From: the human T2T-CHM13v2.0 reference genome, Homo sapiens
Reading direction: 5' to 3'
NCBI GenBank assembly: GCA_009914755.4
Contig: CP086569.2
Coordinates: 12,352,001 to 12,416,000, forward strand
Length of the DNA stretch: 64,000 nucleotides
Shown here in pieces: positions 821 to 64,000 of this stretch (its first letter is position 1; each line of letters opens with the position of its first letter). The translations under genes and the position numbers were made by a program. The notes under the pieces were generated by a model, which had not been told where the DNA came from, ran no database searches, and was given only the letters and a program-made list of their open reading frames with translations.

Positions 821-865
821 AATGGAATGGAATGGAATGGAATGGAATGGAATGGAATGGAATGG
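821..865. repeat. Example of a pure (AATGG)9 tract; its length varies between HOR copies (10 copies at 8321-8370)
   Basis: Direct reading of the sequence. The flanks 'aatggaaatg' and 'acacacatgtaatgg' are conserved, and only the pentamer count changes. Confidence 0.85.
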
Positions 866-36000: not shown

Positions 36001-37237
36001 GGAAAGATGTCGAATGGAATGGATCGAAAAGAAATAGAATGGAATGGACAGGAATGGAATGGAATAGAATGGAATAGACTGGCGTGCAATGAAAACGAAT
36101 GGAATGGAATGGAAAGGAATGGAGTAGAATAAATACTATGGAATGGAATGGAATGGAATGGAATGGAATGGAATGGAATGGAATGGAGGCGAAAGGAAAA
36201 GAATGGATTGGAATGTCACCGAATGGAAAGATAAGGAATGGAAAGGAGTGGATACGAATGGAATGGAATAGAAAGGAACGGAAAGGTAAAGAATGGAATG
36301 GAATCGGATAGAATGGAATGCAATGTAATGGAGTCGAATGGAAAATAATCGAGTAGAATGATATTGAATGGAATGGAATTTAATGGAATGGAATGGAATG
36401 GAATGGACTCGAATGGAATGTACTCAAATGGATTAGAATAGAATGGAATGGAACTAAACGTAATGAACTCGAATGGAATGGACACAAATAGAATGGAAGA
36501 GAAAGGAATGGTATTGAATGGAATTTATTCGAATAGAATGTAATTCAATGGAATGCAACAGTGTGGCATGGAATCAAATGGAATGGAATCGAATGGAATG
36601 GACCCGAGTGGAATGGACTCACATAGAACAGCCTGGAATGTAATGGATGACAGTGTATTAGATTCGAAGGGACTGAAATCGAATGGAATGTAATCAAATA
36701 GAACGGAATTGAATGCATGGAATGGCATAGAAAGTAATGCAATGGAATGGAATAGACTGGAATGGAATGGAATCGGATGGAATGTAATGAAATGTAATGG
36801 AAGGAATGCCATGGAATGGAATGGAATGGAATGCAATGGCCCGGTGTATAATGGAGTGCAATGGAATTCAGTGGAATGTAGTCAACAGGAATGAAATAGA
36901 ATGGAATTCAATATAAGGGAATGGCATCCAATGGCAGGGAATGGCATCCAATGGCAAGGAATGGAGTGGACTCCAATGGAAACAACATGAAAGGAATATA
37001 ATATAATGGAATGGCATTGAACGATATGGAATGCAATGGAGTTAAAAGGTAAGATATCAAATGGAAAAGAATTGAATGGACTCGAATGGAATATAACGGA
37101 ATGGAATGGACTCGAATGGAATGTACTAGAGTTGAATGGAATGGAATGGAATGGAAAACAATGGAAAGGAAAGGAAGGGAATTGAAAGGAAAGGAATAGA
37201 ATGGAATGGAATCGGATAGAACGGAATTGAATGGAAT
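30036..37237. repeat. HOR long unit L5 (7202 bp), variant set B, with internal ~379-bp deletion plus pentamer-tract expansions
   Basis: At 33298-33310, 'acggaatggaattgaatggaatcaaaagg' fuses sequence that lies ~379 bp apart in the other long units (L1 offsets ~3220 and ~3598). The (AATGG)n tract at ~32912-33010 is expanded. Confidence 0.82.
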
Positions 37238-40200
37238 GGAAACTAAAGGAATAGCATAGAAAGGAATGGCATTGAATGGAATGGAATGGAATGGAATCAG
37301 ATGGAACAGAAAGGAATGGAATAGAATCGAATGGTATGGCATCGAATGGATTGGAATGGAATGTAATGGAATGGAAAGGAATGGAATGGACTCGAATGGA
37401 ATGTACTCAAATGGAATAGAATAGAATGGAATGGAAGTAAATATAATGGACTCGAATGGAATGGATTGGAATAAATTGGAATTGAATGTATTGGATTCGA
37501 ATGGAAAGGAATGGAATGGAATGGAATGGATTCGAATGGAATGGAATCGAATGGAATGGAACGAATTGGAATGTAATTGAATGGCGTCGAAAACAGTAGA
37601 AAGAAATGAAGTTTAATCGAATGATATCGAATGGAATTGAATGGAATGTACGCGAATGGAATGGACTGGAATGGAATGGACTCTATGGGAATGAAGAGGA
37701 GTGGAATGGACTCGAATGTCATGGAGACGATTGGAATGGAAGGGAATGCAAAGGAATGGAATGGAATGGAATCTGATGCATCGCAATGGAATGGAATGGG
37801 GTCGAATGGCATAGAATCGAAAGGAATGGCATCCAATGGAATGGAAACGAATTGAATGGAATGGCATGGAATGGAATGGAAAGGAATATAATGGAAAGGA
37901 ATCGGATGGAACGGAATGGAATGTAATGGAGTCGAATGGAATAGAATCTAATAGAATTGCATTGATAGGAATGGAATCGAACGGACTCGAAAGGATTGGA
38001 GCCTAACAGAAGAGAATCGAACACAATAGCATCAAATGGAATGGAAATGAATGGAATGGAATGGAATGGAATGGAATGGAATGGAATGGAATGGAATGGA
38101 CACACATGTAATGGACTTGAATGGAATGGAATCAAATAGAATGGACGCGAATGGAATGTTCTCAAATGGAATTTATGAAAATAGAATGGAATCGAAAGTC
38201 ATTGAACATTATGGAATGGAATCAAATGGAATGAAATCGAATGGAAGGAACCGGAATGGAATGTACTGGAATAGAACGGACTCGAATGTTACGGAAAGAA
38301 AAGTAAGTGATTCGGATGTCTTTTAATTGAATGGAAAGAAATCAAATGGAATGGAAAGGAATAAAATGGAATGGAATGAAATAGAATGCAATAGAATGGA
38401 AGTGAGTGGAGTCGAGTTGAATGGAATCGAATTGAATGGAATAGAATGGAATAGAATCAAATGGAATGGACTCGAATGCAATGGAACCGAATGGAATGGA
38501 CTGGAACATAATGGAATCGAACGTATTGGAATGGAAAGGAATGGAAAGGAATTGAATGCAACGGAAAGCAATGGAATCGAATGTAATGGAGTCGTATGTA
38601 GTGGAGTCGAATGGAATGGAATCAAATGGAAGGAAAAGAATACAATCGAATGGAATAGAATAGAATGCAACAGAATGAAACGGAGTGGAATCGAGTGGAA
38701 TGGAGTAGAATTGAATGGAATGGAAAGGAATGGAATCGAATGGAATGGATCCGAATGGAATGGATCCGAATGGAATGGAATGGAACAAAATGGAATTGAA
38801 CAGATTAGAATCGAATGGATCCGAATCGAATGGAATGGAATATAATGGAATGGAATGGAATGGAATGGAATGGAATGGAATGGAATGGAATGGACCCAAA
38901 TGTAATGAACTCTAATGAAATGGACTTTAATAGAATGGATTAGAAAACAATGGGCTCGAATGGAATTTAATCAAGTCGAATTTAATGGAATGGAATGGAA
39001 TGCAAAACTATGGAATAGCATCAAATGGAATGGAACAGAATAGAGTGGAATGGAATGGAATACACAGGTATAGAACAGACTCGAATGTAATGGATTGCAA
39101 TGTAAGTGATTCAAAGGGAATGGAATCAAATGGAATATAATCAAATGGAATGGAATGGAGTGCATTGGAATGGAATAAAATGGAATGCAAACAATGGTAC
39201 AGAACTCATTTGAATCTAGAGGAGTGGAATCGAATGCAATGGGAAAGAATGGAATGGACACGAATGGAATGGATTGGAAACAAATGGAATGGAAAGGATT
39301 TTAATCATACAGAACAAAATAGAATGCAATGGACTCGAATGAAATGGAGTCGAAGAGAATAGTATCAAATGGAAAGGAATGGAATGCAATCGAATCGAAT
39401 GGAATGTTAATGAAATTAATTGAAAGGAATAGAATGGAATGAAGTGTAATGGAAAGATATCGAATTGAATGGAATTGAATGGAATGGACACAAACGGAAT
39501 GGACTGGAATGGAATGAACTGGAAAGGAATGGAATGGAGCGGAACGGACTCGAGTGCAATGGAATCGAATGGTATAGAATAGAATGGAATGGAATGGAAA
39601 GGAATAGAAGGGAATGGAATCGGATCCAACGGGACAGATTAGAATGGGGTAGAATTGAATAGAATCGAATGGAATGGCATCGAATGTAATGGAATGGAAT
39701 GGACTCGAATGGAATGGAGTGACATGTAATGGAATCGAAGGGAATGGAATCGAATGAAATGGAATTGAATGGAATAGAAAGGAATAGAATGGAATGGAGT
39801 TTAATGGAAAGATATTAAAAGTAATGGAATGGAATTGAGTGGACACGAATGGAATGGACTGGAATGGAAAGGACTCGAATGAAATGGAGCGCATTAGAAT
39901 GGACTCGAATGGAATGGATTGGAGTGGAATGGTCTCGAATGGATTGGAAACGAATGGAATGCAAAGGAATAGAATGGAATGTAATCAAATGGAACGAAAT
40001 GGAATGGAATGGATTCGACTTTAACAGAATTGAATGGAGTGGAATTGATTGGAATGGAATGCAATCGAATGGAATGAACACGAATGGAATAGAATGAAAT
40101 GAAATGGCATAGAATGGAATGGAATGGAATGGAATGGAATGGCATGGAATGGAATGGAATGGAATGGAATGGCATGGAATGTAATGGAATGGAATGAAAT

Positions 40201-43200
40201 TGATTGGAATGGGATGGGCCCAAAAGTAATGGACTCAAATAAAAGGGACTCAAATAGAATGAATTGGAAAGAAACGGTCTCGAATGTAATTCATTCGAAT
40301 GGAATGATATTGAATGGAATGCAATAGTATGGAATGGTATCGAATAGAATGGAATAGAATGGAATGGAATGGAACGGAATGGAGTGCATTTGAACGGACT
40401 CAAATGCAATAAATTGCAATATAATTGATTCAAATGGAATGGAATCGAATACAATGTAAACAAACGGAATGGAAGGCAATGCAATGGCAAGGAATCGAAT
40501 GAAATGGAATAAATGGAATGGAATCGAATGGAAAGGACGCGAATATAATGGACTGTTAAGGAAAGGTCTCGAATCGAATTTATTCCAATAGAATGGAATC
40601 GAAAGGAATGCAATACTATTGAATCGAATCGAATGGAATGGAATTCAATGGAATGGACAGGAATGGAATGAACTGGAAGTGAATGGACAAGAACGTAATA
40701 TATTCCAATGTAATGTATTCAAATGGAATGGAATGCAATCGAATGGAATTGACTCGATTGGAATGGACTGGAGTGGAATGGACTCAAATGGAATGTATTC
40801 GAATGTAATGGACCTGAAAGGAATGGAATCCAATGGAATGGAATTGAATGGAATCAAAAGGAATAGAATGGAATAGAGTGTCATTGAATGATATCGAATG
40901 GAAGGGAATGGAATGAAATCGAATGGAATGCACTGGAATGGAATGGACTCGATCAGAACGGACTGTAGCGGCATGTACACAAATGAAATGGAAACGAATG
41001 GAATGGAATGAAATGGAATGAAATGGAATTGAAAGGAACGGAATGGAATGGAATGGAATGGAATGGATTGGAATAGAATGGATTCAAATAAAATAGAATC
41101 GATTGGAATGGTATTGAATGGAGGGGAATTGAATGGAATGGAAAGCAATGGAAGATATTGGAATCGAATGGCATCGAATGAAATGGAATGGAACGGAATG
41201 GAACGGACCCGAATGGAATGGAATGGACTCAAATGTAATGGACTCGAAAGGAATCGAATGAAATATAATAGACTCGAAAAGAATGGCCTCCAGCGGAATT
41301 TATTTGAATAGAATGGAATGAAATGGAATACAATAGTATTGAATGGAACAGAATGGAATGGAATCGAATGGAATGTAATCAAATGGAATGGAACGGAATT
41401 CAATATAATGGAATAGAATGGAATGCATTGGAAAGGAGCAGAGTGGAATCGAGTGGAATGGAATCGAAAGGAATGGAATCAAAGGGAAAGAAATGGAATT
41501 GAATGGACTTGAATGGAATTGAGTCGAAAGGAATTGACTCGAAAGGAATGGACTGGAACAAAAAGGAATCAAATGGACAGGAATGGAATGGAATGGAATG
41601 GAATGGACTGGAATAGAATGGAGTCAAATGCAAACGCATCGAATGGAATGGATTGAAATGGAATGCAATTGAATGGAATGGAAAGGAAGAGAATGGAATT
41701 GAGAGTAATGGAAAGATATGGATTGGAATGAAATGGAATGGAAAGGAATTGAATGTTAAGGAATGGACTCGGAAGAAATGGATTGGAATTTAATGGTCTC
41801 CAATGGAATGGACTGGAGTGGAACGGAATCGAATGGAATGAAAAGAATGGAACGGAATGGAACGGAAAGGAATAGAATGTTATGGAATCCGATTGGACAG
41901 AATGGAATGGAATGGAGTTTCATGAAATGGAGTCGAATAGAGTGGCATCAAAAGGAATGTAATGGAACGGAGTGGACTCCAAAGGAATGGACTCGAAAGG
42001 AATGGAGACGAACCAAATTGAATCCAATGGATTGGAGTCGAACAGAATGGAATGGAATGGAATGAACTCGACTGGAGTGGAGAGGAATGTAAAGGAATAG
42101 AATGGAATGTAATCAAATGGATTGCAACTGAATGGAATCAAAAATAATAGAAAGGAATGGAGTGTAAAGGGATGATATTGAATATAATGGAATGGAATGG
42201 AATTCAATGGAATGGAGTCGAAGGAATGGACAGGAATGTAATGGACTCTAATGGAATGGAATGGATGAAAATGGATTTGAACAGATTGGAATCGAACGGA
42301 ATGGAATGCAATGGAATGGAATGGATTCGAATGGAGAAGAGACAAATGGAATGGAAACGAATTCAATGGAATTGAAAAGAATAGAATGGAATGGCGTGTA
42401 ATGGTAAGATACTAAATGGAATGGAATGGAATGGAATGGAATGGATTGGAATGGACCCAAATGTAATGCCCTCGAATGGAATATACTCAAATAGAATGGA
42501 ATCGAAAGGAAAGGTCTCAAATGGAATTTATTCAATACAATGGAATCGAATGGAATGCAATAGAATGGAATGGAATCGAATGTAATGGAATCAAATAGAA
42601 TGGACCAGAATGGAATGGACTGCCATAGAACGGAATGCAGTGTAATGGATTGAATTCTAATTCATTCAAATGGAATGGAATTGAATGGAATGGAATCCAA
42701 TGGAATGGATAGGATTGTACTGGATTGGAATAGCATGGAATGCAACGGAGTGGAATGGAGTTGAATGAAGTGGAATGGAATCGATTGGAATAGAATCAAA
42801 TGGAATGGACGGGAATGGAATGGACTGGAAGAGAACAGACTCGAATATAATGGATTGCAATGTAATTGATTCAAATGGAATGGAATCGAATGGAATGTAA
42901 TAAAATTGAAGGGATTGGAGTTCAATGCAAAGGAAAAGAATGGAATGCAAAGGAATGGAAAGGAATGGAGTGAAATCGAGTGTAATGGAATCGAATGGAA
43001 TGAAATCGAATGGAATGGACTCAAAAGAAATGGACGAGGGACAAAACTGAATCGAACTGATTGGAATGGAACGGAACGGAATGGAATGGAATGGTCTCCA
43101 TTGGATCGGAGTAGAACGGATTGGAATGGAATGGAATGAAATGGAATGGAAAGGAATAGAATGGAATGGAATGGAATGGAATGGAAGGTAATGGAAAGAT

Positions 43201-44748
43201 AACGAACGGATTGGAAAGGAATGCAATGGACCCTAATGGAATGGAATGGAATGGAACAGAAACCGATGGAATGGACTGGAGTGAAATGGAGTCGAATGTA
43301 ATTGACTGGAGTGGAATGGACTCGAAAGGAATGGACTCGAATAGAATGGACTGGAATGGATTGTGTTCGAATGGAGTGGAAAGGAATAAAATGGATTCCA
43401 CCAGATTGGAATGGAACAGAATGGAATGGAATGGAATGGAATGCAATGGAACGGCTTGACTGGAATGGAGTCGAATGCAATGGAATAGAAAGGAAAGGAA
43501 TTGAATGGAATTGAAAGTAATAGATTTAAATGGAGTGCAAAGGAAAGATGTCGAATGGAATGGATCGAAAAGAAATAGAATGGAATGGACAGGAATGGAA
43601 TGGAATAGAATGGAATAGACTGGCGTGCAATGAAAACGAATGGAATGGAATGGAAAGGAATGGAGTAGAATAAATACTATGGAATGGAATGGAATGGAGG
43701 CGAAAGGAAAAGAATGGATTGGAATGTCACCGAATGGAAAGATAAGGAATGGAAAGGAGTGGATACGAATGGAATGGAATAGAAAGGAACGGAAAGGTAA
43801 AGAATGGAATGGAATCGGATAGAATGGAATGCAATGTAATGGAGTCGAATGGAAAATAATCGAGTAGAATGATATTGAATGGAATGGAATTTAATGGAAT
43901 GGAATGGAATGGAATGGACTCGAATGGAATGTACTCAAATGGATTAGAATAGAATGGAATGGAACTAAACGTAATGAACTCGAATGGAATGGACACAAAT
44001 AGAATGGAAGAGAAAGGAATGGTATTGAATGGAATTTATTCGAATAGAATGTAATTCAATGGAATGCAACAGTGTGGCATGAAATCAAATGGAATGGAAT
44101 CGAATGGAATGGACCCGAGTGGAATGGACTCACATAGAACAGCCTGGAATGTAATGGATGACAGTGTATTAGATTCGAAGGGACTGAAATCGAATGGAAT
44201 GTAATCAAATAGAACGGAATTGAATGCATGGAATGGCATAGAAAGTAATGCAATGGAATGGAATAGACTGGAATGGAATGGAATCGGATGGAATGTAATG
44301 AAATGTAATGGAAGGAATGCCATGGAATGGAATGGAATGGAATGCAATGGCCCGGTGTATAATGGAGTGCAATGGAATTCAGTGGAATGTAGTCAACAGG
44401 AATGAAATAGAATGGAATTCAATATAAGGGAATGGCATCCAATGGCAGGGAATGGCATCCAATGGCAAGGAATGGAGTGGACTCCAATGGAAACAACATG
44501 AAAGGAATATAATATAATGGAATGGCATTGAACGATATGGAATGCAATGGAGTTAAAAGGTAAGATATCAAATGGAAAAGAATTGAATGGACTCGAATGG
44601 AATATAACGGAATGGAATGGACTCGAATGGAATGTACTAGAGTTGAATGGAATGGAATGGAATGGAAAACAATGGAAAGGAAAGGAAGGGAATTGAAAGG
44701 AAAGGAATAGAATGGAATGGAATCGGATAGAACGGAATTGAATGGAAT
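37238..44748. repeat. HOR long unit L6 (7511 bp), variant set B
   Basis: Full set of long-unit landmarks, including the 3.6 kb block absent from the short units (tagcggcatgtacac at ~40965, gaatggcctccagcgg at ~41282, ccatagaacggaatgcagtg at ~42620). Confidence 0.85.
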
Positions 44749-47700
44749 GGAAACTAAAGGAATAGCATAGAAAGGAATGGCATTGAATGGAATGGAATGG
44801 AATGGAATCAGATGGAACAGAAAGGAATGGAATAGAATCGAATGGTATGGCATCGAATGGATTGGAATGGAATGTAATGGAATGGAAAGGAATGGAATGG
44901 ACTCGAATGGAATGTACTCAAATGGAATAGAATAGAATGGAATGGAAGTAAATATAATGGACTCGAATGGAATGGATTGGAATAAATTGGAATTGAATGT
45001 ATTGGATTCGAATGGAAAGGAATGGAATGGAATGGAATGGATTCGAATGGAATGGAATCGAATGGAATGGAACGAATTGGAATGTAATTGAATGGCGTCG
45101 AAAACAGTAGAAAGAAATGAAGTTTAATCGAATGATATCGAATGGAATTGAATGGAATGTACGCGAATGGAATGGACTGGAATGGAATGGACTCTATGGG
45201 AATGAAGAGGAGTGGAATGGACTCGAATGTCATGGAGACGATTGGAATGGAAGGGAATGCAAAGGAATGGAATGGAATGGAATCTGATGCATCGCAATGG
45301 AATGGAATGGGGTCGAATGGCATAGAATCGAAAGGAATGGCATCCAATGGAATGGAAACGAATTGAATGGAATGGCATGGAATGGAATGGAAAGGAATAT
45401 AATGGAAAGGAATCGGATGGAACGGAATGGAATGTAATGGAGTCGAATGGAATAGAATCTAATAGAATTGCATTGATAGGAATGGAATCGAACGGACTCG
45501 AAAGGATTGGAGCCTAACAGAAGAGAATCGAACAGAATAGCATCAAATGGAATGGAAATGAATGGAATGGAATGGAATGGAATGGAATGGAATGGAATGG
45601 AATGGAATGGACACACATGTAATGGAGTTGAATGGAATGGAATCAAATAGAATGGACGCGAATGGAATGGTCTCGAATGGAATTTATGAAAATAGAATGG
45701 AATCGAAAGTCATTGAACATTATGGAATGGAATCAAATGGAATGAAATCGAATGGAAGGAACCGGAATGGAATGTACTGGAATAGAACGGACTCGAGTGT
45801 TACGGAAAGAAAAGTAAGTGATTCGGATGTCTTTTAATTGAATGGAATGAAATCAAATGGAATGGAAAGGAATAAAATGGAATGGAATAAAATAGAATGC
45901 AATAGAATGGAAGTGAGTGGAGTCGAGTTGAATGGAATCGAATTGAATGGAATAGAATGGAATAGAATCAAATGGAATGGACTCGAATGCAATGGAACCG
46001 AATGGAATGGACTGGAACATAATGGAATCGAACGTATTGGAATGGAAAGGAATGGAAAGGAATTGAATGCAACGGAAAGCAATGGAATCGAATGTAATGG
46101 AGTCGTATGTAGTGGAGTCGAATGGAATGGAATCAAATGGAAGGAAAAGAATACAATCGAATGGAATAGAATAGAATGCAACAGAATGAAACGGAGTGGA
46201 ATCGAGTGGAATGGAATAGAATTGAATGGAATGGAAAGGAATGGAATCGAATGGAATGGATCCGAATGGAATGGATCCGAATGGAATGGAATGGAACAAA
46301 ATGGAATTGAACAGATTAGAATCGAATGGATCCGAATCGAATGGAATGGAATATAATGGAATGGAATGGAATGGAATGGAATGGAATGGAATGGACCCAA
46401 AGGTAATGAACTCTAATGAAATGGACTTTAATAGAATGGATTAGAAAACAATGGGCTCGAATGGAATTTAATCAAGTCGAATTTAATGGAATGGAATGGA
46501 ATGCAAAACTATGGAATAGCATCAAATGGAATGGAACAGAATAGAGTGGAATGGAATGGAATACACAGGAATAGAACAGACTCGAATGTAATGGATTGCA
46601 ATGTAAGTGATTCAAAGGGAATGGAATCAAATGGAATATAATCAAATGGAATGGAATGGAGTGCATTGGAATGGAATAAAATGGAATGCAAACAATGTTA
46701 CAGAACTCATTTGAATCTAGAGGAATGGAATCGAATGCAATGGGAAAGAATGGAATGGACACGAATGGAATGGATTGGAAACAAATGGAATGGAAAGGAT
46801 TTTAATCATACAGAACAAAATAGAATGCAATGGACTCGAATGAAATGGAGTCGAAGAGAATAGTATCAAATGGAAAGGAATGGAATGCAATCGAATCGAA
46901 TGGAATGTTAATGAAATTAATTGAAAGGAATAGAATGGAATGAAGTGTAATGGAAAGATATCGAATTGAATGGAATTGAATGGAATGGACACAAACGGAA
47001 TGGACTGGAATGGAATGAACTGGAAAGGAATGGAATGGAGCGGAACGGACTCGAGTGCAATGGAATCGAATGGTATAGAATAGAATGGAATGGAATGGAA
47101 AGGAATAGAAGGGAATGGAATCGGATCCAACGGGACAGATTGGAATGGGGTAGAATTGAATAGAATCGAATGGAATGGCATCGAATGTAATGGAATGGAA
47201 TGGACTCGAATGGAATGGAGTGACATGTAATGGAATCGAAAGGAATGGAATCGAATGAAATGGAATTGAATGGAATAGAAAGGAATAGAATGGAATGGAG
47301 TTTAATGGAAAGATATTAAAAGTAATGGAATGGAATTGAGTGGACACGAATGGAATGGACTGGAATGGAAAGGACTCGAATGAAATGGAGCGCATTAGAA
47401 TGGACTCGAATGGAATGGATTGGAGTGGAATGGTCTCGAATGGATTGGAAACGAATGGAATGGAAAGGAGTAGAATGGAATGTAATCAAATGGAACGAAA
47501 TGGAATGGAATGGATTCGACTGGAACAGAATTGAATGGAGTGGAATTGATTGGAATGGAATGCAATCGAATGGAATGAACACGAATGGAATAGAATGAAA
47601 TGAAATGGCATAGAATGGAATGGAATGGAATGGAATGGAATGGAATGGAATGGAATGGAATGGAATGGCATGGCATGGAACGTGATGGAATGGAATGAAA

Positions 47701-48624
47701 TTGATTGGAATGGGATGGGCCCAAAAGTAAAGGACTCAAATAAAAGGGACTCAAATAGAATGAATTGGAAAGAAACGGTCTCGAATGTAATTCATTCGAA
47801 TGGAATGATATTGAATGGAATGCAATAGTATGGAATGGTATCGAATAGAATGGAATAGAATGGAATGGAATGGAACGGAATGGAGTGCATTTGAACGGAC
47901 TCAAATGCAATAAATTGCAATATAATTGATTCAAATGGAATGGAATCGAATAGAATGTAAACAAACGGAATGGAAGGCAATGCAATGGAAAGGAATCGAA
48001 TGAAATGGACCCGAGTGGAATGGACTCACATAGAACAGCCTTGAATGTAATGGATGACAATGTATTAGATTCGAAAGGACTGAAATCGAATGGAATGTAA
48101 TCAAATAGAACGGAATTGAATGCATGGAATGGCATAGAAAGTAATGCAATGGAATGGAATAGACTGGAATGGAATGGAATCGGATGGAATGTAATGAAAT
48201 GTAATGGAAGGAATGCCATGGAATGGAATGGAATGGAATGCAATGGGCCGGTGTATAATGGAGTGCAATGGAATTCAGTGGAATGTAGTCAATAGGAATG
48301 AAATAGAATGGAATTCAATATAAGGGAATGGCATCCAATGGCAAGGAATGGAGTGGACTCCAATGGAAACAACATGAAAGGAATATAATATAATGGAATG
48401 GCATTGAACGAAATGGAAAGCAATGGAGTTAAAAGGTAAGATATCGAATGGAAAAGAATTGAATGGACTCGAATGGAATATAACGGAATGGAATGGACTC
48501 GAATGGAATGTACTAGAGTTGAATGGAATCGAATGGAATGGAAAACAGTGGAAAGGAAAGGAAGGGAATTGAAAGGAAAGGAATAGAATGGAATGGAATC
48601 GGATAGAATGGAATTGAATGGAAT
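44749..48624. repeat. HOR short unit S1 (3876 bp), hybrid long-type 5' / short-type 3'
   Basis: The 5' ~2.65 kb carries long B-type variants ('ggaatataatgg', 'caatgggaaagaatgg', 'ggatccgaatggaatggatccgaatgg'). From ~47455 it carries short-type variants ('ggaatggaaaggagtagaatgg', 'ggcatggcatggaacgtgatgg', 'aaaagtaaaggactc'). The deletion junction 'aatcgaatgaaatgg|acccgagtgg' is at 48008/48009. Confidence 0.8.
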
Positions 48625-51600
48625 GGAAACTAAAGGAATAGAATAGAAAGGAATGGCATTGAATGGAATGGAATGGAATGGAATCAGATGGAACAGAAAG
48701 GAATGGAATAGAATCGAATGGTATGGCATCGAATGGATTGGAATGGAAAGGAATGGAATGAACTCGAATGGAATGTACTCAAATGGAATAGAATAGAATG
48801 GAATGGAAGTAAATATAATGGACTCGAATGGAATGGATTGGAATAAATTGGAATTGAATGTATTGGATTCGATTGGAAAGGAATGGAATGGAATGGAATG
48901 GATTCGAATGGAATGGAATCGAATGGAATGGAACGAATTGGAATGTAATTGAATGGCGTCGAAAACAGTAGAAAGAAATGAAGTTTAATCGAATGATATC
49001 GAATGGAATTGAATGGAATGTACGCGAATGGAATGGACTGGAATGGAATGGACTCTATGGGAATGAAGAGGAGTGGAGTGGACTCGAATGTCATGGAGAC
49101 GATTGGAATGGAAAGGAATGCAAAGGAATGGAATGGAATGGAATCTGATGCATCGCAATGGAATGGAATGGGGTCGAATGGAATAGAATCGAAAGGAATG
49201 GCATCCAATGGAATGGAAACGAATTGAATGGAATGGCATGGAATGGAATGGAAAGGAATATAATGGAAAGGAATCGGATGGAACGGAATGGAATGGAATG
49301 GAGTCGAATGGAATAGAATCTAATAGAATTGCATTGATAGGAATGGAATCGAACAGACTCGAAAGGATTGGAGCCTAACAGAAGAGAATCGAACAGAATA
49401 GCATCAAATGGAATGGAAATGAATGGAATGGAATGGAATGGAATGGAATGGAATGGAATGGAATGGACACACATGTAATGGACTTGAATGGAATGGAATC
49501 AAATAGAATGGACGCGAATGGAATGGTCTCGAATGGAATTTATGAAAATAGAATGGAATCGAAATTCATTGAACATTATGGAATGGAATCAAATGGAATG
49601 AAATCGAATGGAAGGAACCGGAATGGAATGTACTGGAATAGAACGGACTCGAATGTTACGGAAAGAAAAGTAAGTGATTCGGATGTCTTTTAATTGAATG
49701 GAATGAAATCAAATGGAATGGAAAGGAATAAAATGGAATGGAATGAAATAGAATGCAATAGAATGGAAGGGAGTGGAGTCGAGTTGAATGGAATCGAATT
49801 GAATGGAATAGAATGGAATAGAATCAAATGGAATGGATTCGAATGCAATGGAACCGAATGGAATGGACTGGAACATAATGGAATCGAAAGGAATGGAAAG
49901 GAATTGAATGCAATGGAAAGCAATGGAATCGAATGTAATGGAGTCGTATGTAGTGGAGTCGAATGGAATGGAATCAAATGGAAGGAAAAGAATACAATCG
50001 AATGGAATAGAATAGAATACAACAGAATGAAACGGAGTGGAATCGAGTGGGATGGAATAGAATTCAATGGAATGGAAAGGAATGGAATCGAATGGAATGG
50101 AATCGAATGGAATGGAACCGAACAAAATGGAATTGAACAGATTAGAATCGAATGGATCCGAATCGAATGGAATGGAGTATAAGGGAATGGAATGGAATGG
50201 AATGGACCCAAATGTCATGAACTCTAATGAAATGGACTTTAATAGAATGGATTAGAAAACAATGGGCTCGAATGGAATTTAATCAAGTCGAATTTAATGG
50301 AATGGAATGGAATGCAAAACTATGGAATAGCATCAAATGGAATGGAACAGAATAGAGTGGAATGGAATGGAATACACAGGTATAGAACAGACTCGAATGT
50401 AATGGATTGCAATGTAAGTGATTCAAAGGGAATGGAATCAAATGGAATATAATCAAATGGAATGGAATGGAGTGCATTGGAATGGAATAAAATGGAATGC
50501 AAACAATGGTACAGAACTCATTTGAATGTAGAGGAATGGAATCGAATGCAATGGAAAAGAATGGAATGGACACGAATGGAATGGATTGGAAACAAATGGA
50601 ATGGAAAGGATTTTAATCATACAGAACAAAATAGAATGCAATGGACTCGAATGAAATGGAGTCGAAGAGAATAGTATCAAATGGAAAGGAATGGAATGCA
50701 ATCGAATCGAATGGAATGTTAATGAAATTAATTGAAAGGAATAGAATGGAATGAAGTGTAACGGAAAGATATCGAATTGAATGGAATTGAATGGAATGGA
50801 CACAAACGGAATGGACTGGAATGGAATGAACTGGAAAGGAATGGAATGGAGCGGAACGGACTCGAGTGCAATGGAATCGAATGGTATAGAATAGAATGGA
50901 ATGGAATGGAAAGGAATAGAAGGGAATGGAATCGGATCCAACGGGACAGATTGGAATGGGGTAGAATTGAATAGAATCGAATGGAATGGCATCGAATGTA
51001 ATGGAATGGAATGGACTCGAATGGAATGGAGTGACATGTAATGGAATCGAAAGGAATGGAATCGAATGAAATGGAATTGAATGGAATAGAAAGGAATAGA
51101 ATGGAATGGAGTTTAATGGAAAGATATTAAAAGTAATGGAATGGAATTGAGTGGACACGAATGGAATGGACTGGAATGGAAAGGACTCGAATGAAATGGA
51201 GCGCATTAGAATGGACTCGAATGGAATGGATTGGAGTGGAATGGTCTCGAATGGATTGGAAACGAATGGAATGGAAAGGAGTAGAATGGAATGTAATCAA
51301 ATGGAACGAAATGGAATGGAATGGATTCGACTGGAACAGAATTGAATGGAGTGGAATTGATTGGAATGGAATGCAATCGAATGGAATGAACACGAATGGA
51401 ATAGAATGAAATGAAATGGCATAGAATGGAATGGAATGGAATGGAATGGAATGGAATGGAATGGAATGGAATGGAATGGCATGGCATGGAACGTGATGGA
51501 ATGGAATGAAATTGATTGGAATGGGATGGGCCCAAAAGTAAAGGACTCAAATAAAAGGGACTCAAATAGAATGAATTGGAAAGAAACGGTCTCGAATGTA

Positions 51601-52435
51601 ATTCATTCGAATGGAATGATATTGAATGGAATGCAATAGTATGGAATGGTATCGAATAGAATGGAATAGAATGGAATGGAATGGAACGGAATGGAGTGCA
51701 TTTGAACGGACTCAAATGCAATAAATTGCAATATAATTGATTCAAATGGAATGGAATCGAATAGAATGTAAACAAACGGAATGGAAGGCAATGCAATGGA
51801 AAGGAATCGAATGAAATGGACCCGAGTGGAATGGACTCACATAGAACAGCCTTGAATGTAATGGATGACAATGTATTAGATTCGAAAGGACTGAAATCGA
51901 ATGGAATGTAATCAAATAGAACGGAATTGAATGCATGGAATGGCATAGAAAGTAATGCAATGGAATGGAATAGACTGGAATGGAATGGAATCGGATGGAA
52001 TGTAATGAAATGTAATGGAAGGAATGCCATGGAATGGAATGGAATGGAATGCAATGGGCCGGTGTATAATGGAGTGCAATGGAATTCAGTGGAATGTAGT
52101 CAATAGGAATGAAATAGAATGGAATTCAATATAAGGGAATGGCATCCAATGGCAAGGAATGGAGTGGACTCCAATGGAAACAACATGAAAGGAATATAAT
52201 ATAATGGAATGGCATTGAACGAAATGGAAAGCAATGGAGTTAAAAGGTAAGATATCGAATGGAAAAGAATTGAATGGACTCGAATGGAATATAACGGAAT
52301 GGAATGGACTCGAATGGAATGTACTAGAGTTGAATGGAATCGAATGGAATGGAAAACAGTGGAAAGGAAAGGAAGGGAATTGAAAGGAAAGGAATAGAAT
52401 GGAATGGAATCGGATAGAATGGAATTGAATGGAAT
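48625..52435. repeat. HOR short unit S2 (3811 bp)
   Basis: Landmarks: 'aactaaaggaatagaatagaaagg' (versus long 'gcatagaaagg'), gatgtcttttaattg at 49681, 'gtacagaactcatttgaatgtagagg' at ~50510, gggcccaaaagtaaagg at ~51527, and junction 'atgaaatgg|acccgagtgg' at 51819/51820. It lacks the tagcggcatg, ggcctccagcgg and gaattctaattc landmarks. Confidence 0.87.
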
Positions 52436-55400
52436 GGAAACTAAAGGAATAGAATAGAAAGGAATGGCATTGAATGGAATGGAATGGAATGGAATCAGAT
52501 GGAACAGAAAGGAATGGAATAGAATCGAATGGTATGGCATCGAATGGATTGGAATGGAAAGGAATGGAATGAACTCGAATGGAATGTACTCAAATGGAAT
52601 AGAATAGAATGGAATGGAAGTAAATATAATGGACTCGAATGGAATGGATTGGAATAAATTGGAATTGAATGTATTGGATTCGATTGGAAAGGAATGGAAT
52701 GGAATGGAATGGATTCGAATGGAATGGAATCGAATGGAATGGAACGAATTGGAATGTAATTGAATGGCGTCGAAAACAGTAGAAAGAAATGAAGTTTAAT
52801 CGAATGATATCGAATGGAATTGAATGGAATGTACGCGAATGGAATGGACTGGAATGGAATGGACTCTATGGGAATGAAGAGGAGTGGAGTGGACTCGAAT
52901 GTCATGGAGACGATTGGAATGGAAAGGAATGCAAAGGAATGGAATGGAATGGAATCTGATGCATCGCAATGGAATGGAATGGGGTCGAATGGAATAGAAT
53001 CGAAAGGAATGGCATCCAATGGAATGGAAACGAATTGAATGGAATGGCATGGAATGGAATGGAAAGGAATATAATGGAAAGGAATCGGATGGAACGGAAT
53101 GGAATGGAATGGAGTCGAATGGAATAGAATCTAATAGAATTGCATTGATAGGAATGGAATCGAACGGACTCGAAAGGATTGGAGCCTAACAGAAGAGAAT
53201 CGAACAGAATAGCATCAAATGGAATGGAAATGAATGGAATGGAATGGAATGGAATGGAATGGAATGGAATGGAATGGACACACATGTAATGGACTTGAAT
53301 GGAATGGAATCAAATAGAATGGACGCGAATGGAATGGTCTCGAATGGAATTTATGAAAATAGAATGGAATCGAAATTCATTGAACATTATGGAATGGAAT
53401 CAAATGGAATGAAATCGAATGGAAGGAACCGGAATGGAATGTACTGGAATAGAACGGACTCGAATGTTACGGAAAGAAAAGTAAGTGATTCGGATGTCTT
53501 TTAATTGAATGGAATGAAATCAAATGGAATGGAAAGGAATAAAATGGAATGGAATGAAATAGAATGCAATAGAATGGAAGGGAGTGGAGTCGAGTTGAAT
53601 GGAATCGAATTGAATGGAATAGAATGGAATAGAATCAAATGGAATGGATTCGAATGCAATGGAACCGAATGGAATGGACTGGAACATAATGGAATCGAAA
53701 GGAATGGAAAGGAATTGAATGCAATGGAAAGCAATGGAATCGAATGTAATGGAGTCGTATGTAGTGGAGTCGAATGGAATGGAATCAAATGGAAGGAAAA
53801 GAATAAAATCGAATGGAATAGAATAGAATACAACAGAATGAAACGGAGTGGAATCGAGTGGGATGGAATAGAATTCAATGGAATGGAAAGGAATGGAATC
53901 GAATGGAATGGAATCGAATGGAATGGAACCGAACAAAATGGAATTGAACAGATTAGAATCGAATGGATCCGAATCGAATGGAATGGAATATAAGGGAATG
54001 GAATGGAATGGAATGGACCCAAATGTAATGAACTCTAATGAAATGGACTTTAATAGAATGGATTAGAAAACAATGGGCTCGAATGGAATTTAATCAAGTC
54101 GAATTTAATGGAATGGAATGGAATGCAAAACTATGGAATAGCATCAAATGGAATGGAACAGAATAGAGTGGAATGGAATGGAATACACAGGTATAGAACA
54201 GACTCGAATGTAATGGATTGCAATGTAAGTGATTCAAAGGGAATGGAATCAAATGGAATATAATCAAATGGAATGGAATGGAGTGCATTGGAATGGAATA
54301 AAATGGAATGCAAACAATGGTACAGAACTCATTTGAATGTAGAGGAATGGAATCGAATGCAATGGAAAAGAATGGAATGGACACGAATGGAATGGATTGG
54401 AAACAAATGGAATGGAAAGGATTTTAATCATACAGAACAAAATAGAATGCAATGGACTCGAATGAAATGGAGTCGAAGAGAATAGTATCAAATGGAAAGG
54501 AATGGAATGCAATCGAATCGAATGGAATGTTAATGAAATTAATTGAAAGGAATAGAATGGAATGAAGTGTAACGGAAAGATATCGAATTGAATGGAATTG
54601 AATGGAATGGACACAAACGGAATGGACTGGAATGGAATGAACTCGAAAGGAATGGAATGGAGCGGAACGGACTCGAGTGCAATGGAATCGAATGGTATAG
54701 AATAGAATGGAATGGAATGGAAAGGAATAGAAGGGAATGGAATCGGATCCAACGGGACAGATTGGAATGGGGTAGAATTGAATAGAATCGAATGGAATGG
54801 CATCGAATGTAATGGAATGGAATGGACTCGAATGGAATGGAGTGACATGTAATGGAATCGAAAGGAATGGAATCGAATGAAATGGAATTGAATGGAATAG
54901 AAAGGAATAGAATGGAATGGAGTTTAATGGAAAGATATTAAAAGTAATGGAATGGAATTGAGTGGACACGAATGGAATGGACTGGAATGGAAAGGACTCG
55001 AATGAAATGGAGCGCATTAGAATGGACTCGAATGGAATGGATTGGAGTGGAATGGTCTCGAATGGATTGGAAACGAATGGAATGGAAAGGAGTAGAATGG
55101 AATGTAATCAAATGGAACGAAATGGAATGGAATGGATTCGACTGGAACAGAATTGAATGGAGTGGAATTGATTGGAATGGAATGCAATCGAATGGAATGA
55201 ACACGAATGGAATAGAATGAAATGAAATGGCATAGAATGGAATGGAATGGAATGGAATGGAATGGAATGGAATGGAATGGAATGGAATGGAATGGCATGG
55301 AACGTGATGGAATGGAATGAAATTGATTGGAATGGGATGGGCCCAAAAGTAAAGGACTCAAATAAAAGGGACTCAAATAGAATGAATTGGAAAGAAACGG

Positions 55401-56246
55401 TCTCGAATGTAATTCATTCGAATGGAATGATATTGAATGGAATGCAATAGTATGGAATGGTATCGAATAGAATGGAATAGAATGGAATGGAATGGAACGG
55501 AATGGAGTGCATTTGAACGGACTCAAATGCAATAAATTGCAATATAATTGATTCAAATGGAATGGAATCGAATAGAATGTAAACAAACGGAATGGAAGGC
55601 AATGCAATGGAAAGGAATCGAATGAAATGGACCCGAGTGGAATGGACTCACATAGAACAGCCTTGAATGTAATGGATGACAATGTATTAGATTCGAAAGG
55701 ACTGAAATCGAATGGAATGTAATCAAATAGAACGGAATTGAATGCATGGAATGGCATAGAAAGTAATGCAATGGAATGGAATAGACTGGAATGGAATGGA
55801 ATCGGATGGAATGTAATGAAATGTAATGGAAGGAATGCCATGGAATGGAATGGAATGGAATGCAATGGGCCGGTGTATAATGGAGTGCAATGGAATTCAG
55901 TGGAATGTAGTCAATAGGAATGAAATAGAATGGAATTCAATATAAGGGAATGGCATCCAATGGCAAGGAATGGAGTGGACTCCAATGGAAACAACATGAA
56001 AGGAATATAATATAATGGAATGGCATTGAACGAAATGGAAAGCAATGGAGTTAAAAGGTAAGATATCGAATGGAAAAGAATTGAATGGACTCGAATGGAA
56101 TATAACGGAATGGAATGGACTCGAATGGAATGTACTAGAGTTGAATGGAATCGAATGGAATGGAAAACAGTGGAAAGGAAAGGAAGGGAATTGAAAGGAA
56201 AGGAATAGAATGGAATGGAATCGGATAGAATGGAATTGAATGGAAT
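52436..56246. repeat. HOR short unit S3 (3811 bp)
   Basis: Near-identical to S2, including identical ORF translations. The junction is at 55630/55631. Confidence 0.87.
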
Positions 56247-59200
56247 GGAAACTAAAGGAATAGAATAGAAAGGAATGGCATTGAATGGAATGGAATGGAA
56301 TGGAATCAGATGGAACAGAAAGGAATGGAATAGAATCGAATGGTATGGCATCGAATGGATTGGAATGGAAAGGAATGGAATGAACTCGAATGGAATGTAC
56401 TCAAATGGAATAGAATAGAATGGAATGGAAGTAAATATAATGGACTCGAATGGAATGGATTGGAATAAATTGGAATTGAATGTATTGGATTCGATTGGAA
56501 AGGAATGGAATGGAATGGAATGGATTCGAATGGAATGGAATCGAATGGAATGGAACGAATTGGAATGTAATTGAATGGCGTCGAAAACAGTAGAAAGAAA
56601 TGAAGTTTAATCGAATGATATCGAATGGAATTGAATGGAATGTACGCGAATGGAATGGACTGGAATGGAATGGACTCTATGGGAATGAAGAGGAGTGGAG
56701 TGGACTCGAATGTCATGGAGACGATTGGAATGGAAAGGAATGCAAAGGAATGGAATGGAATGGAATCTGATGCATCGCAATGGAATGGAATGGGGTCGAA
56801 TGGAATAGAATCGAAAGGAATGGCATCCAATGGAATGGAAACGAATTGAATGGAATGGCATGGAATGGAATGGAAAGGAATATAATGGAAAGGAATCGGA
56901 TGGAACGGAATGGAATGGAATGGAGTCGAATGGAATAGAATCTAATAGAATTGCATTGATAGGAATGGAATCGAACGGACTCGAAAGGATTGGAGCCTAA
57001 CAGAAGAGAATCGAACAGAATAGCATCAAATGGAATGGAAATGAATGGAATGGAATGGAATGGAATGGAATGGAATGGAATGGAATGGACACACATGTAA
57101 TGGACTTGAATGGAATGGAATCAAATAGAATGGACGCGAATGGAATGGTCTCGAATGGAATTTATGAAAATAGAATGGAATCGAAATTCATTGAACATTA
57201 TGGAATGGAATCAAATGGAATGAAATCGAATGGAAGGAACCGGAATGGAATGTACTGGAATAGAACGGACTCGAATGTTACGGAAAGAAAAGTAAGTGAT
57301 TCGGATGTCTTTTAATTGAATGGAATGAAATCAAATGGAATGGAAAGGAATAAAATGGAATGGAATGAAATAGAATGCAATAGAATGGAAGGGAGTGGAG
57401 TCGAGTTGAATGGAATCGAATTGAATGGAATAGAATGGAATAGAATCAAATGGAATGGATTCGAATGCAATGGAACCGAATGGAATGGACTGGAACATAA
57501 TGGAATCGAAAGGAATGGAAAGGAATTGAATGCAATGGAAAGCAATGGAATCGAATGTAATGGAGTCGTATGTAGTGGAGTCGAATGGAATGGAATCAAA
57601 TGGAAGGAAAAGAATACAATCGAATGGAATAGAATAGAATACAACAGAATGAAACGGAGTGGAATCGAGTGGGATGGAATAGAATTCAATGGAATGGAAA
57701 GGAATGGAATCGAATGGAATGGAATCGAATGGAATGGAACCGAACAAAATGGAATTGAACAGATTAGAATCGAATGGATCCGAATCGAATGGAATGGAAT
57801 ATAAGGGAATGGAATGGAATGGAATGGACCCAAATGTCATGAACTCTAATGAAATGGACTTTAATAGAATGGATTAGAAAACAATGGGCTCGAATGGAAT
57901 TTAATCAAGTCGAATTTAATGGAATGGAATGGAATGCAAAACTATGGAATAGCATCAAATGGAATGGAACAGAATAGAGTGGAATGGAATGGAATACACA
58001 GGTATAGAACAGACTCGAATGTAATGGATTGCAATGTAAGTGATTCAAAGGGAATGGAATCAAATGGAATATAATCAAATGGAATGGAATGGAGTGCATT
58101 GGAATGGAATAAAATGGAATGCAAACAATGGTACAGAACTCATTTGAATGTAGAGGAATGGAATCGAATGCAATGGAAAAGAATGGAATGGACACGAATG
58201 GAATGGATTGGAAACAAATGGAATGGAAAGGATTTTAATCATACAGAACAAAATAGAATGCAATGGACTCGAATGAAATGGAGTCGAAGAGAATAGTATC
58301 AAATGGAAAGGAATGGAATGCAATCGAATCGAATGGAATGTTAATGAAATTAATTGAAAGGAATAGAATGGAATGAAGTGTAACGGAAAGATATCGAATT
58401 GAATGGAATTGAATGGAATGGACACAAACGGAATGGACTGGAATGGAATGAACTCGAAAGGAATGGAATGGAGCGGAACGGACTCGAGTGCAATGGAATC
58501 GAATGGTATAGAATAGAATGGAATGGAATGGAAAGGAATAGAAGGGAATGGAATCGGATCCAACGGGACAGATTGGAATGGGGTAGAATTGAATAGAATC
58601 GAATGGAATGGCATCGAATGTAATGGAATGGAATGGACTCGAATGGAATGGAGTGACATGTAATGGAATCGAAAGGAATGGAATCGAATGAAATGGAATT
58701 GAATGGAATAGAAAGGAATAGAATGGAATGGAGTTTAATGGAAAGATATTAAAAGTAATGGAATGGAATTGAGTGGACACGAATGGAATGGACTGGAATG
58801 GAAAGGACTCGAATGAAATGGAGCGCATTAGAATGGACTCGAATGGAATGGATTGGAGTGGAATGGTCTCGAATGGATTGGAAACGAATGGAATGGAAAG
58901 GAGTAGAATGGAATGTAATCAAATGGAACGAAATGGAATGGAATGGATTCGACTGGAACAGAATTGAATGGAGTGGAATTGATTGGAATGGAATGCAATC
59001 GAATGGAATGAACACGAATGGAATAGAATGAAATGAAATGGCATAGAATGGAATGGAATGGAATGGAATGGAATGGAATGGAATGGAATGGAATGGAATG
59101 GCATGGCATGGAACGTGATGGAATGGAATGAAATTGATTGGAATGGGATGGGCCCAAAAGTAAAGGACTCAAATAAAAGGGACTCAAATAGAATGAATTG

Positions 59201-60057
59201 GAAAGAAACGGTCTCGAATGTAATTCATTCGAATGGAATGATATTGAATGGAATGCAATAGTATGGAATGGTATCGAATAGAATGGAATAGAATGGAATG
59301 GAATGGAACGGAATGGAGTGCATTTGAACGGACTCAAATGCAATAAATTGCAATATAATTGATTCAAATGGAATGGAATCGAATAGAATGTAAACAAACG
59401 GAATGGAAGGCAATGCAATGGAAAGGAATCGAATGAAATGGACCCGAGTGGAATGGACTCACATAGAACAGCCTTGAATGTAATGGATGACAATGTATTA
59501 GATTCGAAAGGACTGAAATCGAATGGAATGTAATCAAATAGAACGGAATTGAATGCATGGAATGGCATAGAAAGTAATGCAATGGAATGGAATAGACTGG
59601 AATGGAATGGAATCGGATGGAATGTAATGAAATGTAATGGAAGGAATGCCATGGAATGGAATGGAATGGAATGCAATGGGCCGGTGTATAATGGAGTGCA
59701 ATGGAATTCAGTGGAATGTAGTCAATAGGAATGAAATAGAATGGAATTCAATATAAGGGAATGGCATCCAATGGCAAGGAATGGAGTGGACTCCAATGGA
59801 AACAACATGAAAGGAATATAATATAATGGAATGGCATTGAACGAAATGGAAAGCAATGGAGTTAAAAGGTAAGATATCGAATGGAAAAGAATTGAATGGA
59901 CTCGAATGGAATATAACGGAATGGAATGGACTCGAATGGAATGTACTAGAGTTGAATGGAATCGAATGGAATGGAAAACAGTGGAAAGGAAAGGAAGGGA
60001 ATTGAAAGGAAAGGAATAGAATGGAATGGAATCGGATAGAATGGAATTGAATGGAAT
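56247..60057. repeat. HOR short unit S4 (3811 bp)
   Basis: Near-identical to S2 and S3. The junction is at 59441/59442. Confidence 0.87.
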
Positions 60058-63883: not shown

Positions 63884-64000
63884 GGAAACTAAAGGAATAG
63901 AATAGAAAGGAATGGCATTGAATGGAATGGAATGGAATGGAATCAGATGGAACAGAAAGGAATGGAATAGAATCGAATGGTATGGCATCGAATGGATTGG
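63884..64000. repeat. Start of a further short-type HOR copy (partial)
   Basis: The landmark 'ggaaactaaaggaatagaatagaaagg' restarts at 63884 in the short-type form. Confidence 0.75.

What the first reader, a model, noticed from the sequence alone, without database searches (positions are those of the whole stretch)
44749..48624. The transition unit is a recombinant: long-type (B) variants 5', short-type variants 3', with the switch ~550 bp upstream of the deletion junction
Up to ~47400, unit S1 carries long-unit B-type diagnostic bases ('ggaatataatgg', 'caatgggaaagaatgg', three BamHI-type 'ggatccgaatgg' repeats). From ~47455 it carries the short-type diagnostic bases ('ggaatggaaaggagtagaatgg', 'aacgtgatgg', 'gtaaagg'). 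The two arrays are therefore joined in register within a ~60-bp interval of shared sequence, as expected for unequal homologous crossover or gene-conversion tract ends between neighbouring HOR domains.
Basis: seen in the sequence. Interest (0 to 1): 0.6.

Follow-up and report, generated by a model that had tools for sequence, protein, structure and literature searches.

The report
Hybrid repeat unit joining two satellite blocks
In a 64-kb stretch of (GGAAT)n satellite DNA, the one repeat unit lying between a block of 7.5-kb units and a block of 3.8-kb units is a clean two-part hybrid of the two types, which is the ordinary footprint of one in-register homologous exchange in a tandem array.

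Summary
The core observation holds. The window is entirely (GGAAT)n satellite, resembling human satellite 3. It contains six long units (L1-L6, 9-44748, about 7.5 kb each) followed by short units (S1-S5 and a partial S6, about 3.8 kb each).

- **Short units:** they equal long units minus about 3.6 kb (L6 40503-44107) and minus 20 bp.
- **S1 (44749-48624):** it carries the long-block state at all 21 diagnostic events from 44766 to 46951. It carries the short-block state at all 19 events from 47463 to 48609. Nothing is interleaved (P about 1.5e-11).
- **Switch position:** There is no marker between 46952 and 47462, so the resolution is 511 bp, not 60 bp. S1 matches S2 exactly from 46952 onward, and site 47241 suggests the switch lies in 46952-47240. 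That puts it 541-1052 bp upstream of the deletion junction (48004-48009).
- **Outside evidence:** metagenome contigs show the "short-type" alleles also sit on undeleted long units. The short block therefore descends from a different long-unit lineage, and S1 joins two lineages.

One in-register homologous exchange is the best reading. Crossover and one-sided conversion cannot be told apart. This is a textbook feature of tandem arrays and of low novelty.

The parts
9..44748 (+). Long-unit block: L1 9-7508, L2 7509-15023, L3 15024-22524, L4 22525-30035, L5 30036-37237, L6 37238-44748. Units are about 7.5 kb, except L5 at 7202 bp.
   Evidence: k-mer spacing peaks at 7491-7541 and 7172-7202. Anchor motif positions. 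Alignment.
40503..44107 (+). The segment of L6 (3605 bp, 721 pentamers) that is absent from all short units, S1 included.
   Evidence: Alignment gap at columns 3301-6955 in S1-S5. Flanks and coordinates.
44749..46951 (+). S1 5' segment of the long-block type. All 17 diagnostic SNVs and 4 diagnostic indels are in the long state. It is closest to L5 (6 substitutions in 2203 bp) and has 3 private SNVs (45889, 46402, 46698).
46952..47462 (+). Switch interval: 511 bp with no strict long/short difference, bounded by the longest spacing between diagnostic markers in the unit (512 bp, 46951 to 47463). S1 is identical to S2 and S5 here and differs from every long unit at one or more sites. Site 47241 (A in S1 and the short units, G in L4-L6) points to 46952-47240.
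47463..48624 (+). S1 3' segment of the short-block type. All 17 diagnostic SNVs, the 20-bp deletion (between 48322 and 48323) and the 3.6-kb deletion are in the short state. It has 0 differences from S2 and S4.
47992..48009 (+). Deletion junction. An 18-bp imperfect direct repeat, GGAATCGAATG[A/G]AATGGA, is present at both ends of the lost segment in long units. The joint lies in the 6-bp AATGGA at 48004-48009.
48625..64000 (+). Short-unit block: S2 48625-52435, S3 52436-56246, S4 56247-60057 (3811 bp each), S5 60058-63883 (3826 bp), and S6 cut off by the window end. Units differ from one another by 0-5 substitutions per 2.2 kb.

Best explanation
S1 is a hybrid repeat unit. It marks the border between two separately homogenised blocks of one (GGAAT)n nested-tandem-repeat array. 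A long unit of the local long block, most like L5, and a unit of the short block paired in register. They underwent one homologous exchange somewhere in 46952-47462, probably 46952-47240. Everything to the left stayed long-block sequence, and everything to the right became short-block sequence, including the 3.6-kb deletion about 0.5-1 kb downstream.

The short block did not arise from the long units beside it. Its alleles occur elsewhere on undeleted long units, so the deletion happened on another long-unit lineage. It occurred by recombination or slippage between an 18-bp imperfect direct repeat. That unit was then amplified.

**Shown:** the partition, the in-register joint, the different divergence of the two halves, the junction homology, and the existence of short-block alleles on undeleted units.

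**Inferred:** that the exchange was an unequal crossover (sister chromatid or homologue) rather than a one-sided conversion, and that it is about as recent as the short-block amplification. The second inference rests on S1 being identical to S2 over 2.4 kb.

The joint has no function of its own. It is a by-product of array turnover.
For: - **Array and periods:** the whole window is a pentamer-based satellite with two periods, about 7.5 kb and 3811 bp.
- **Clean partition:** 21 long-state events are followed by 19 short-state events with none interleaved. P = 1.5e-11.
- **Exact identity to S2:** it runs from 46952 to 49354.
- **Divergence contrast:** S1 vs L5 is 6/2203 on the 5' side and 20/1134 on the 3' side. 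S1 vs S2 is 30/2203 and 0/1134.
- **Deletion flanks:** they share GGAATCGAATG[A/G]AATGGA.
- **Long unit is not an old dimer:** the lost segment matches the rest of the unit at only 66-70% on all diagonals.
- **Alleles on undeleted units:** a 36-nt string combining the short-block allele with undeleted structure is absent from the window but present in 7 outside contigs. The combination of short-block allele plus deletion is present in 2 outside contigs.
- **Independent short-type unit:** contig L006 is a pure short-type unit, with 2 mismatches in 1.5 kb.
- **Literature:** evolution of such arrays by unequal exchange, and hybrid units created by it, are described for alpha satellite and for Y-linked HSat3 (10.1101/2021.07.12.452052; 10.1101/2022.12.01.518724).
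Against: - Only one haplotype and one edge of the short block are visible. No reciprocal product can be checked, and neither can the population frequency.
- None of the 12 outside contigs reproduces this particular hybrid.
- The outside contigs are short-read metagenome assemblies of presumed host contamination. They may themselves be mosaics, and they were selected for two short-block alleles.
- The last long-state marker, 46951 T, also occurs on two otherwise short-allele-rich outside contigs (L008, L012). The 5' limit of the switch could therefore be as far left as 46745.
Confidence: 0.75

Rival explanations
1. One-sided gene conversion, or break-induced copying, moved the block border instead of a reciprocal crossover. 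Either short-block sequence overwrote the 3' part of a long unit, deletion included, or long-block sequence overwrote the 5' part of a short unit. The visible switch would be one end of the tract, and the other end would be hidden inside a block of identical type.
For: There is a single sharp switch with no indel. S1's 3' part is identical to S2. L5 and S1's 5' part also share 5 alleles with the short block in columns 787-2002, which could be older short conversion patches.
Against: This needs a tract of at least 1.16 kb that also carries a 3.6-kb heterology. Alternatively it needs a tract of at least 2.2 kb running into the neighbouring unit. It makes no prediction that differs from a crossover in this window.
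Confidence: 0.15
2. Assembly artefact: two real arrays were falsely joined by the assembler inside the 511 bp (up to 2.4 kb near-identical) stretch that they share.
For: The joint falls in the longest stretch without any long/short difference. A mis-join would look exactly like this.
Against: The long-type 5' part of S1 is a distinct copy with 3 private SNVs, and it continues the long block in phase. A shared stretch of 0.5 kb is far shorter than modern long reads. Short-type units are real in other samples. This cannot be tested without reads.
Confidence: 0.07
3. In-situ founder with no exchange: S1 is the original deleted unit. The short-block alleles are later mutations that spread only rightwards from the switch, through amplification of a 3811-bp segment starting there.
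For: Exact 3811-bp periodicity begins immediately after 46951. Units at the edges of arrays are known to be less homogenised.
Against: S1's 3' part differs from every long unit in the window by 18-21 substitutions in 1134 bp, while its 5' part differs from L5 by 6 in 2203 bp. The short-block alleles next to the junction exist on undeleted units in 7 outside contigs, so they predate the deletion instead of arising after it. A lineage switch is still needed.
Confidence: 0.03

Closest known systems
Structural-variant and hybrid higher-order repeats in human alpha satellite arrays (T2T-CHM13 centromere maps, 10.1101/2021.07.12.452052)
   Same: These are variant repeat units made by deletion within a longer canonical unit and then amplified into local blocks. 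Hybrid units occur where exchanges fall inside a unit, and arrays are divided into locally homogenised domains.
   Different: Here the base repeat is a 5-bp (GGAAT) motif with multi-kilobase 'nested tandem repeat' units, not 171-bp monomers. The deletion used an 18-bp imperfect repeat rather than monomer-to-monomer homology.
DYZ1, the ~3.6-kb HSat3 nested tandem repeat of human Yq12 (10.1101/2022.12.01.518724; PMC4022460)
   Same: It is a (CATTC/GGAAT)n-derived satellite with kilobase-scale units more than 98% identical to one another. Its evolution is attributed to unequal exchange.
   Different: Unit lengths here are 7.5 kb and 3.81 kb. No interspersed HSat1B is seen in 64 kb. I could not compare sequences with DYZ1, so identity with it is neither shown nor excluded.
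Unequal crossing-over model of tandem-array evolution (Smith 1976; cited from my own knowledge)
   Same: It predicts local homogenisation, spread of variant units, sharp in-register borders and chimeric border units.
   Different: It is a general model, not a sequence family. This locus is one instance of it.

Membership tests
Classical (GGAAT)n satellite, HSat3-like | Sequence derived throughout from a tandem pentamer GGAAT/CATTC | tested here: met
   Tandem Repeats Finder reports one array over 1-64000 with periods 10 and 15 and consensus AATGGAATGG. GC is uniform at 0.37-0.39 and GC skew is about 0.6.
Classical (GGAAT)n satellite, HSat3-like | Kilobase-scale nested tandem repeat units of high mutual identity | tested here: met
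   Periods are about 7.5 kb and 3811 bp. Units differ by 0-1.5%.
Classical (GGAAT)n satellite, HSat3-like | Human origin and assignment to a named HSat3 subfamily or chromosome | not testable with these tools
   No human reference is available. Twelve metagenome contigs (presumed host contamination) match at 80-98%. There were 0 hits in prokaryote genomes. No paper naming a 7.5-kb HSat3 unit was found.
Hybrid border unit from one in-register homologous exchange | Both parental types are present as pure units on either side | tested here: met
   L1-L6 lie to the left and S2-S5 to the right, with 34 SNV and 6 indel fixed differences between them.
Hybrid border unit from one in-register homologous exchange | A single switch of parental markers with none interleaved | tested here: met
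   21 long-state events are followed by 19 short-state events. P = 1.5e-11.
Hybrid border unit from one in-register homologous exchange | The joint lies in shared sequence, with no insertion, deletion or filler | tested here: met
   Identity to S2 is ungapped and exact from 46952. The alignment to L3-L6 across 46952-47462 is ungapped (L1 and L2 lack one base at 47129).
Hybrid border unit from one in-register homologous exchange | A reciprocal product, or presence of the same hybrid in independent haplotypes | not testable with these tools
   The right end of the short block lies outside the window. None of the 12 outside contigs carries this hybrid.
Internal (two-ended) gene-conversion patch | Donor-type markers flanked on both sides by recipient-type markers | tested here: not met
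   There is only one switch. The short-block state continues from 47463 to the end of the window.

The most novel reading that the evidence does not exclude
The segment around unit columns 3264-3300 (L6 40466-40502) may be a recurrent breakage or recombination hotspot within this satellite unit. Two independent deletions start within 30 bp of each other there: 369 bp in L5 and 3.6 kb in the short-unit lineage. The border exchange also lies less than about 1 kb upstream. If real, specific sites inside HSat3 units would steer how new unit lengths are born.
Probability: 0.1. Interest if true: 0.4.

Novelty: new member of a known kind. Interest (0 to 1): 0.2.

Why it matters
This is a clean, base-resolved example of how two homogenised blocks of a classical satellite are stitched together. 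It also shows that a 'short' unit type can descend from a different long-unit lineage than the one it now sits beside. That is useful as a worked case and as a cis marker pair (46951 T with 47463 G) for tracing this array across haplotypes. It does not change the understanding of satellite evolution, because unequal exchange and hybrid border units are expected.

Tried and rejected
1. **Long unit as an old dimer.** I tested whether the 'deletion' was really an in-register crossover between two ~3.7-kb halves. Autocorrelation and BLAST of the lost segment against the rest of the unit gave only the satellite background of 66-70% on all diagonals. Rejected.
2. **Shared gap start in L5 and the short units.** MAFFT placed the L5 gap and the short-unit gap at the same column. 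Inspection showed this is a gap-placement artefact. The L5 deletion is a separate 369-bp event starting 28-30 bp earlier.
3. **Polarity of the alleles.** Using outside contigs, the distant contigs (80-90% identity) carry about 57 short-block states and 40 long-block states. Neither set is simply ancestral. The contigs were also selected on two short-block alleles, so no firm polarity claim is made.
4. **First k-mer genotyping of the contigs.** It was noisy because several marker k-mers are generic GGAAT repeats. I replaced it with alignment-based calls.
5. **A blastn run against the whole window timed out**. I redid it with megablast.
6. **The ungapped S1-versus-L6 comparison used the wrong offset** and is ignored.
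7. **Literature searches for a 7.5-kb HSat3 unit found nothing**. The chromosome and subfamily remain unidentified.
8. **An Rfam scan of 36000-53000 found nothing**.
9. **A scan of prokaryote genomes for the short-type 34-mer found nothing**.

Full report
**What the window is.** All 64 kb is one tandem array derived from the pentamer GGAAT. Tandem Repeats Finder reports a single array with periods 10 and 15, and composition is uniform throughout. On top of the pentamer there are two long periods: about 7.5 kb from position 1 to about 48000, and 3811 bp from about 44000 to the end.

An anchor motif cuts the array into units:

| Unit | Coordinates | Length |
|---|---|---|
| L1 | 9-7508 | 7500 |
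| L2 | 7509-15023 | 7515 |
| L3 | 15024-22524 | 7501 |
| L4 | 22525-30035 | 7511 |
| L5 | 30036-37237 | 7202 |
| L6 | 37238-44748 | 7511 |
| S1 | 44749-48624 | 3876 |
| S2 | 48625-52435 | 3811 |
| S3 | 52436-56246 | 3811 |
| S4 | 56247-60057 | 3811 |
| S5 | 60058-63883 | 3826 |
| S6 | 63884-64000 | cut off by the window end |

This is the organisation described for human satellite 3 as 'nested tandem repeats' (10.1101/2021.07.12.452052). I could not assign a chromosome or subfamily, and no paper in the library mentions a 7.5-kb HSat3 unit.

**How short units relate to long units.** In a MAFFT alignment of the 11 units, every short unit, S1 included, lacks columns 3301-6955. That segment is L6 40503-44107, or 3605 bp and 721 pentamers. 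Every short unit also lacks a further 20 bp in the tail.

In long units both ends of the lost segment carry GGAATCGAATG[A/G]AATGGA. The short units keep the left-hand A, so the joint lies in the following AATGGA, which is 48004-48009 in S1.

The long unit is not an old dimer. The lost segment matches the rest of the unit at only 66-70% on every diagonal, which is the background for this satellite. The short unit is therefore a deletion derivative made through a short imperfect direct repeat. It is not the product of a crossover between two half-units.

**Checking the observation.** I took the columns where S2-S5 share a state that none of L1-L6 has.
- From 44766 to 46951, S1 has the long-block state at all 17 SNVs and all 4 indels. 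The indels are 15 bp at 44863, 15 bp at 46030, 15 bp at 46279 and 10 bp at 46360.
- From 47463 to 48609, S1 has the short-block state at all 17 SNVs, the 20-bp deletion and the 3.6-kb deletion. Site 47989 counts among these SNVs once the misaligned L5 is set aside.
- Nothing is interleaved.

An alignment-free test with 21-mers gives the same picture. K-mers found only in L1-L6 stop at the one covering 46951, and k-mers found only in S2-S6 start at the one covering 47463. The probability of a perfect partition of 21 and 19 events is 1.5e-11, and a maximum chi-square scan is never matched in 100000 permutations.

The switch is not confined to 47400-47455.
- There is no strict marker between 46952 and 47462, so the resolution is 511 bp. 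The bounding markers, 46951 and 47463, are the most widely spaced in the unit (512 bp).
- S1 is base-for-base identical to S2 at offset 3811 from 46952 through 49354, a run of 2403 bp.
- Every long unit differs from S1 at least once inside the interval. L4-L6 differ at 47241 (G against A), L1-L3 at 47390, and L5 and L6 each have a private difference.
- S1's 5' part belongs with L4-L6, so the most likely interval is 46952-47240.
- The switch therefore lies 541-1052 bp upstream of the deletion junction, probably 764-1052 bp.
- Of the 'three BamHI-type repeats', only two are diagnostic (46258, 46273). The GGATCC at 46328 is shared with the short units.

**The two halves have different histories.**

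| Comparison | 5' part (2203 bp) | 3' part (1134 bp) |
|---|---|---|
| S1 vs L5 | 6 substitutions | 20 |
| S1 vs L6 | 12 | 21 |
| S1 vs S2-S5 | 27-30 | 0-1 |

The contrast for L5 (6/2203 against 20/1134) has Fisher P = 9e-6. A unit that simply acquired a deletion in place would not show this contrast, so S1 joins two lineages.

**Evidence from elsewhere.** A scan of public metagenome contigs with a short-type 34-mer (47450-47483) returned 12 contigs, presumably host contamination. The same scan of prokaryote genomes returned none.
- Contig L006 is a pure short-type unit that includes the deletion junction. It has 2 mismatches in 1.5 kb against 54709-56246. The short type is therefore real in an independent sample.
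- More informative is a 36-nt string that combines the short-block allele (A at the equivalent of 47989) with the undeleted long structure. It is absent from the window, where undeleted units always have C. It is present in seven contigs: L002, L004, L005, L009, L010, L011 and L012. The combination of short-block allele plus deletion is in L006 and L007.
- Alignment-based genotyping shows that contigs with long structure and 94-97% identity carry mostly short-block alleles. The short:long counts are L005 10:4, L008 14:8, L010 14:11 and L012 12:3.
- The 'short-type' bases are therefore not tied to the deletion. The deletion arose on a long unit of another lineage, and the short block is not a daughter of the long units now next to it.

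Three caveats apply. These contigs are short-read assemblies and may be mosaics. They were selected on two short-block alleles. None of them reproduces the S1 hybrid itself.

**Mechanism.** The best reading is one homologous, in-register exchange between a long-block unit (L5-like) and a short-block unit within 46952-47462. It leaves a hybrid unit at the border of two homogenised blocks.
- A reciprocal unequal crossover is the simplest version.
- A one-sided conversion or break-induced copying event would look the same here.
- A two-ended conversion patch is excluded, because there is only one switch.
- S1's 3' part and the next 0.7 kb are identical to the following unit, so the event is about as recent as the amplification of the short block.
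- An assembly mis-join inside the shared stretch cannot be excluded without reads. It is unlikely, given the short length of the shared stretch and the private variants in S1's 5' part.

**Comparison with what is known, and novelty.** Variant units made by internal deletion, their local amplification, hybrid units and evolution by unequal exchange are all described. They are reported for alpha satellite (10.1101/2021.07.12.452052) and for the Y-linked HSat3 array DYZ1 (10.1101/2022.12.01.518724). This locus is a tidy new instance of that behaviour. A specialist would not be surprised by it.

**Things seen in passing.**
- L5 has a separate 369-bp deletion that starts 28-30 bp from the short-unit deletion.
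- The long block itself has two sub-blocks, L1-L3 and L4-L6.
- S1's 5' part resembles L5 rather than its neighbour L6.
- Pure (GGAAT)n tracts inside the unit change length in almost every copy.

Noticed in passing
window 33298-33307 (L5 junction); the lost segment corresponds to L6 40475-40843: L5 has its own 369-bp deletion, joined in a 9-bp GGAATGGAA microhomology. Its left breakpoint is only 28-30 bp upstream of the left breakpoint of the 3.6-kb short-unit deletion (L6 40503). The chance of such closeness in a 7.5-kb unit is about 1%, judged after the fact. MAFFT's placement of both gaps at the same column was an artefact.
   Followed up: partly
window 20402-23072 (end of L3 to start of L4): The long block has two sub-blocks. 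L1-L3 are nearly identical to one another and differ from L4-L6 at 10 fixed sites. The change of type falls between 20402 and 23029, so there is a second, less well resolved border in the window.
   Followed up: partly
window 30036-37237 (L5) versus 44749-46951 (S1 5' part): S1's long-type part is closest to L5, two units away (6 substitutions in 2203 bp), and not to the adjacent L6 (12). L4 and L6 are likewise close (5). This hints at a two-unit (~15 kb) duplication L4-L5 to L6-'L7'. L5 is the most divergent long unit: in the table, 48 variable-column entries are private to it, including indel and misaligned columns. L5 and S1's 5' part share 5 alleles with the short block.
   Followed up: partly
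window 46354-46380, 38844-38870 and the equivalent place in each unit; also 62857-62871 in S5: Pure (GGAAT)n runs inside the unit (alignment columns 1612-1646 and 2890-2909) have a different length, in 5-bp steps, in almost every copy. They behave like embedded microsatellites. S5 owes its extra 15 bp to one of them.
   Followed up: no
loci L002, L004, L005, L009, L010, L011, L012 (for example L012 2459-2494, L005 2387-2422); L006 866, L007 1085: Metagenome contigs, presumably host DNA, contain relatives of these units at 80-98% identity. Seven of them combine a 'short-type' allele with the undeleted long structure, a combination absent from the window. Two carry the short-type deletion junction.
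   Followed up: yes
window 46258, 46273, 46328, 47123 and the equivalent positions in other units: Long units and S1 have four GGATCC (BamHI) sites in this part of the unit. Short units S2-S5 keep only two, for example 50154 and 50934. A BamHI digest would therefore distinguish the two blocks.
   Followed up: no
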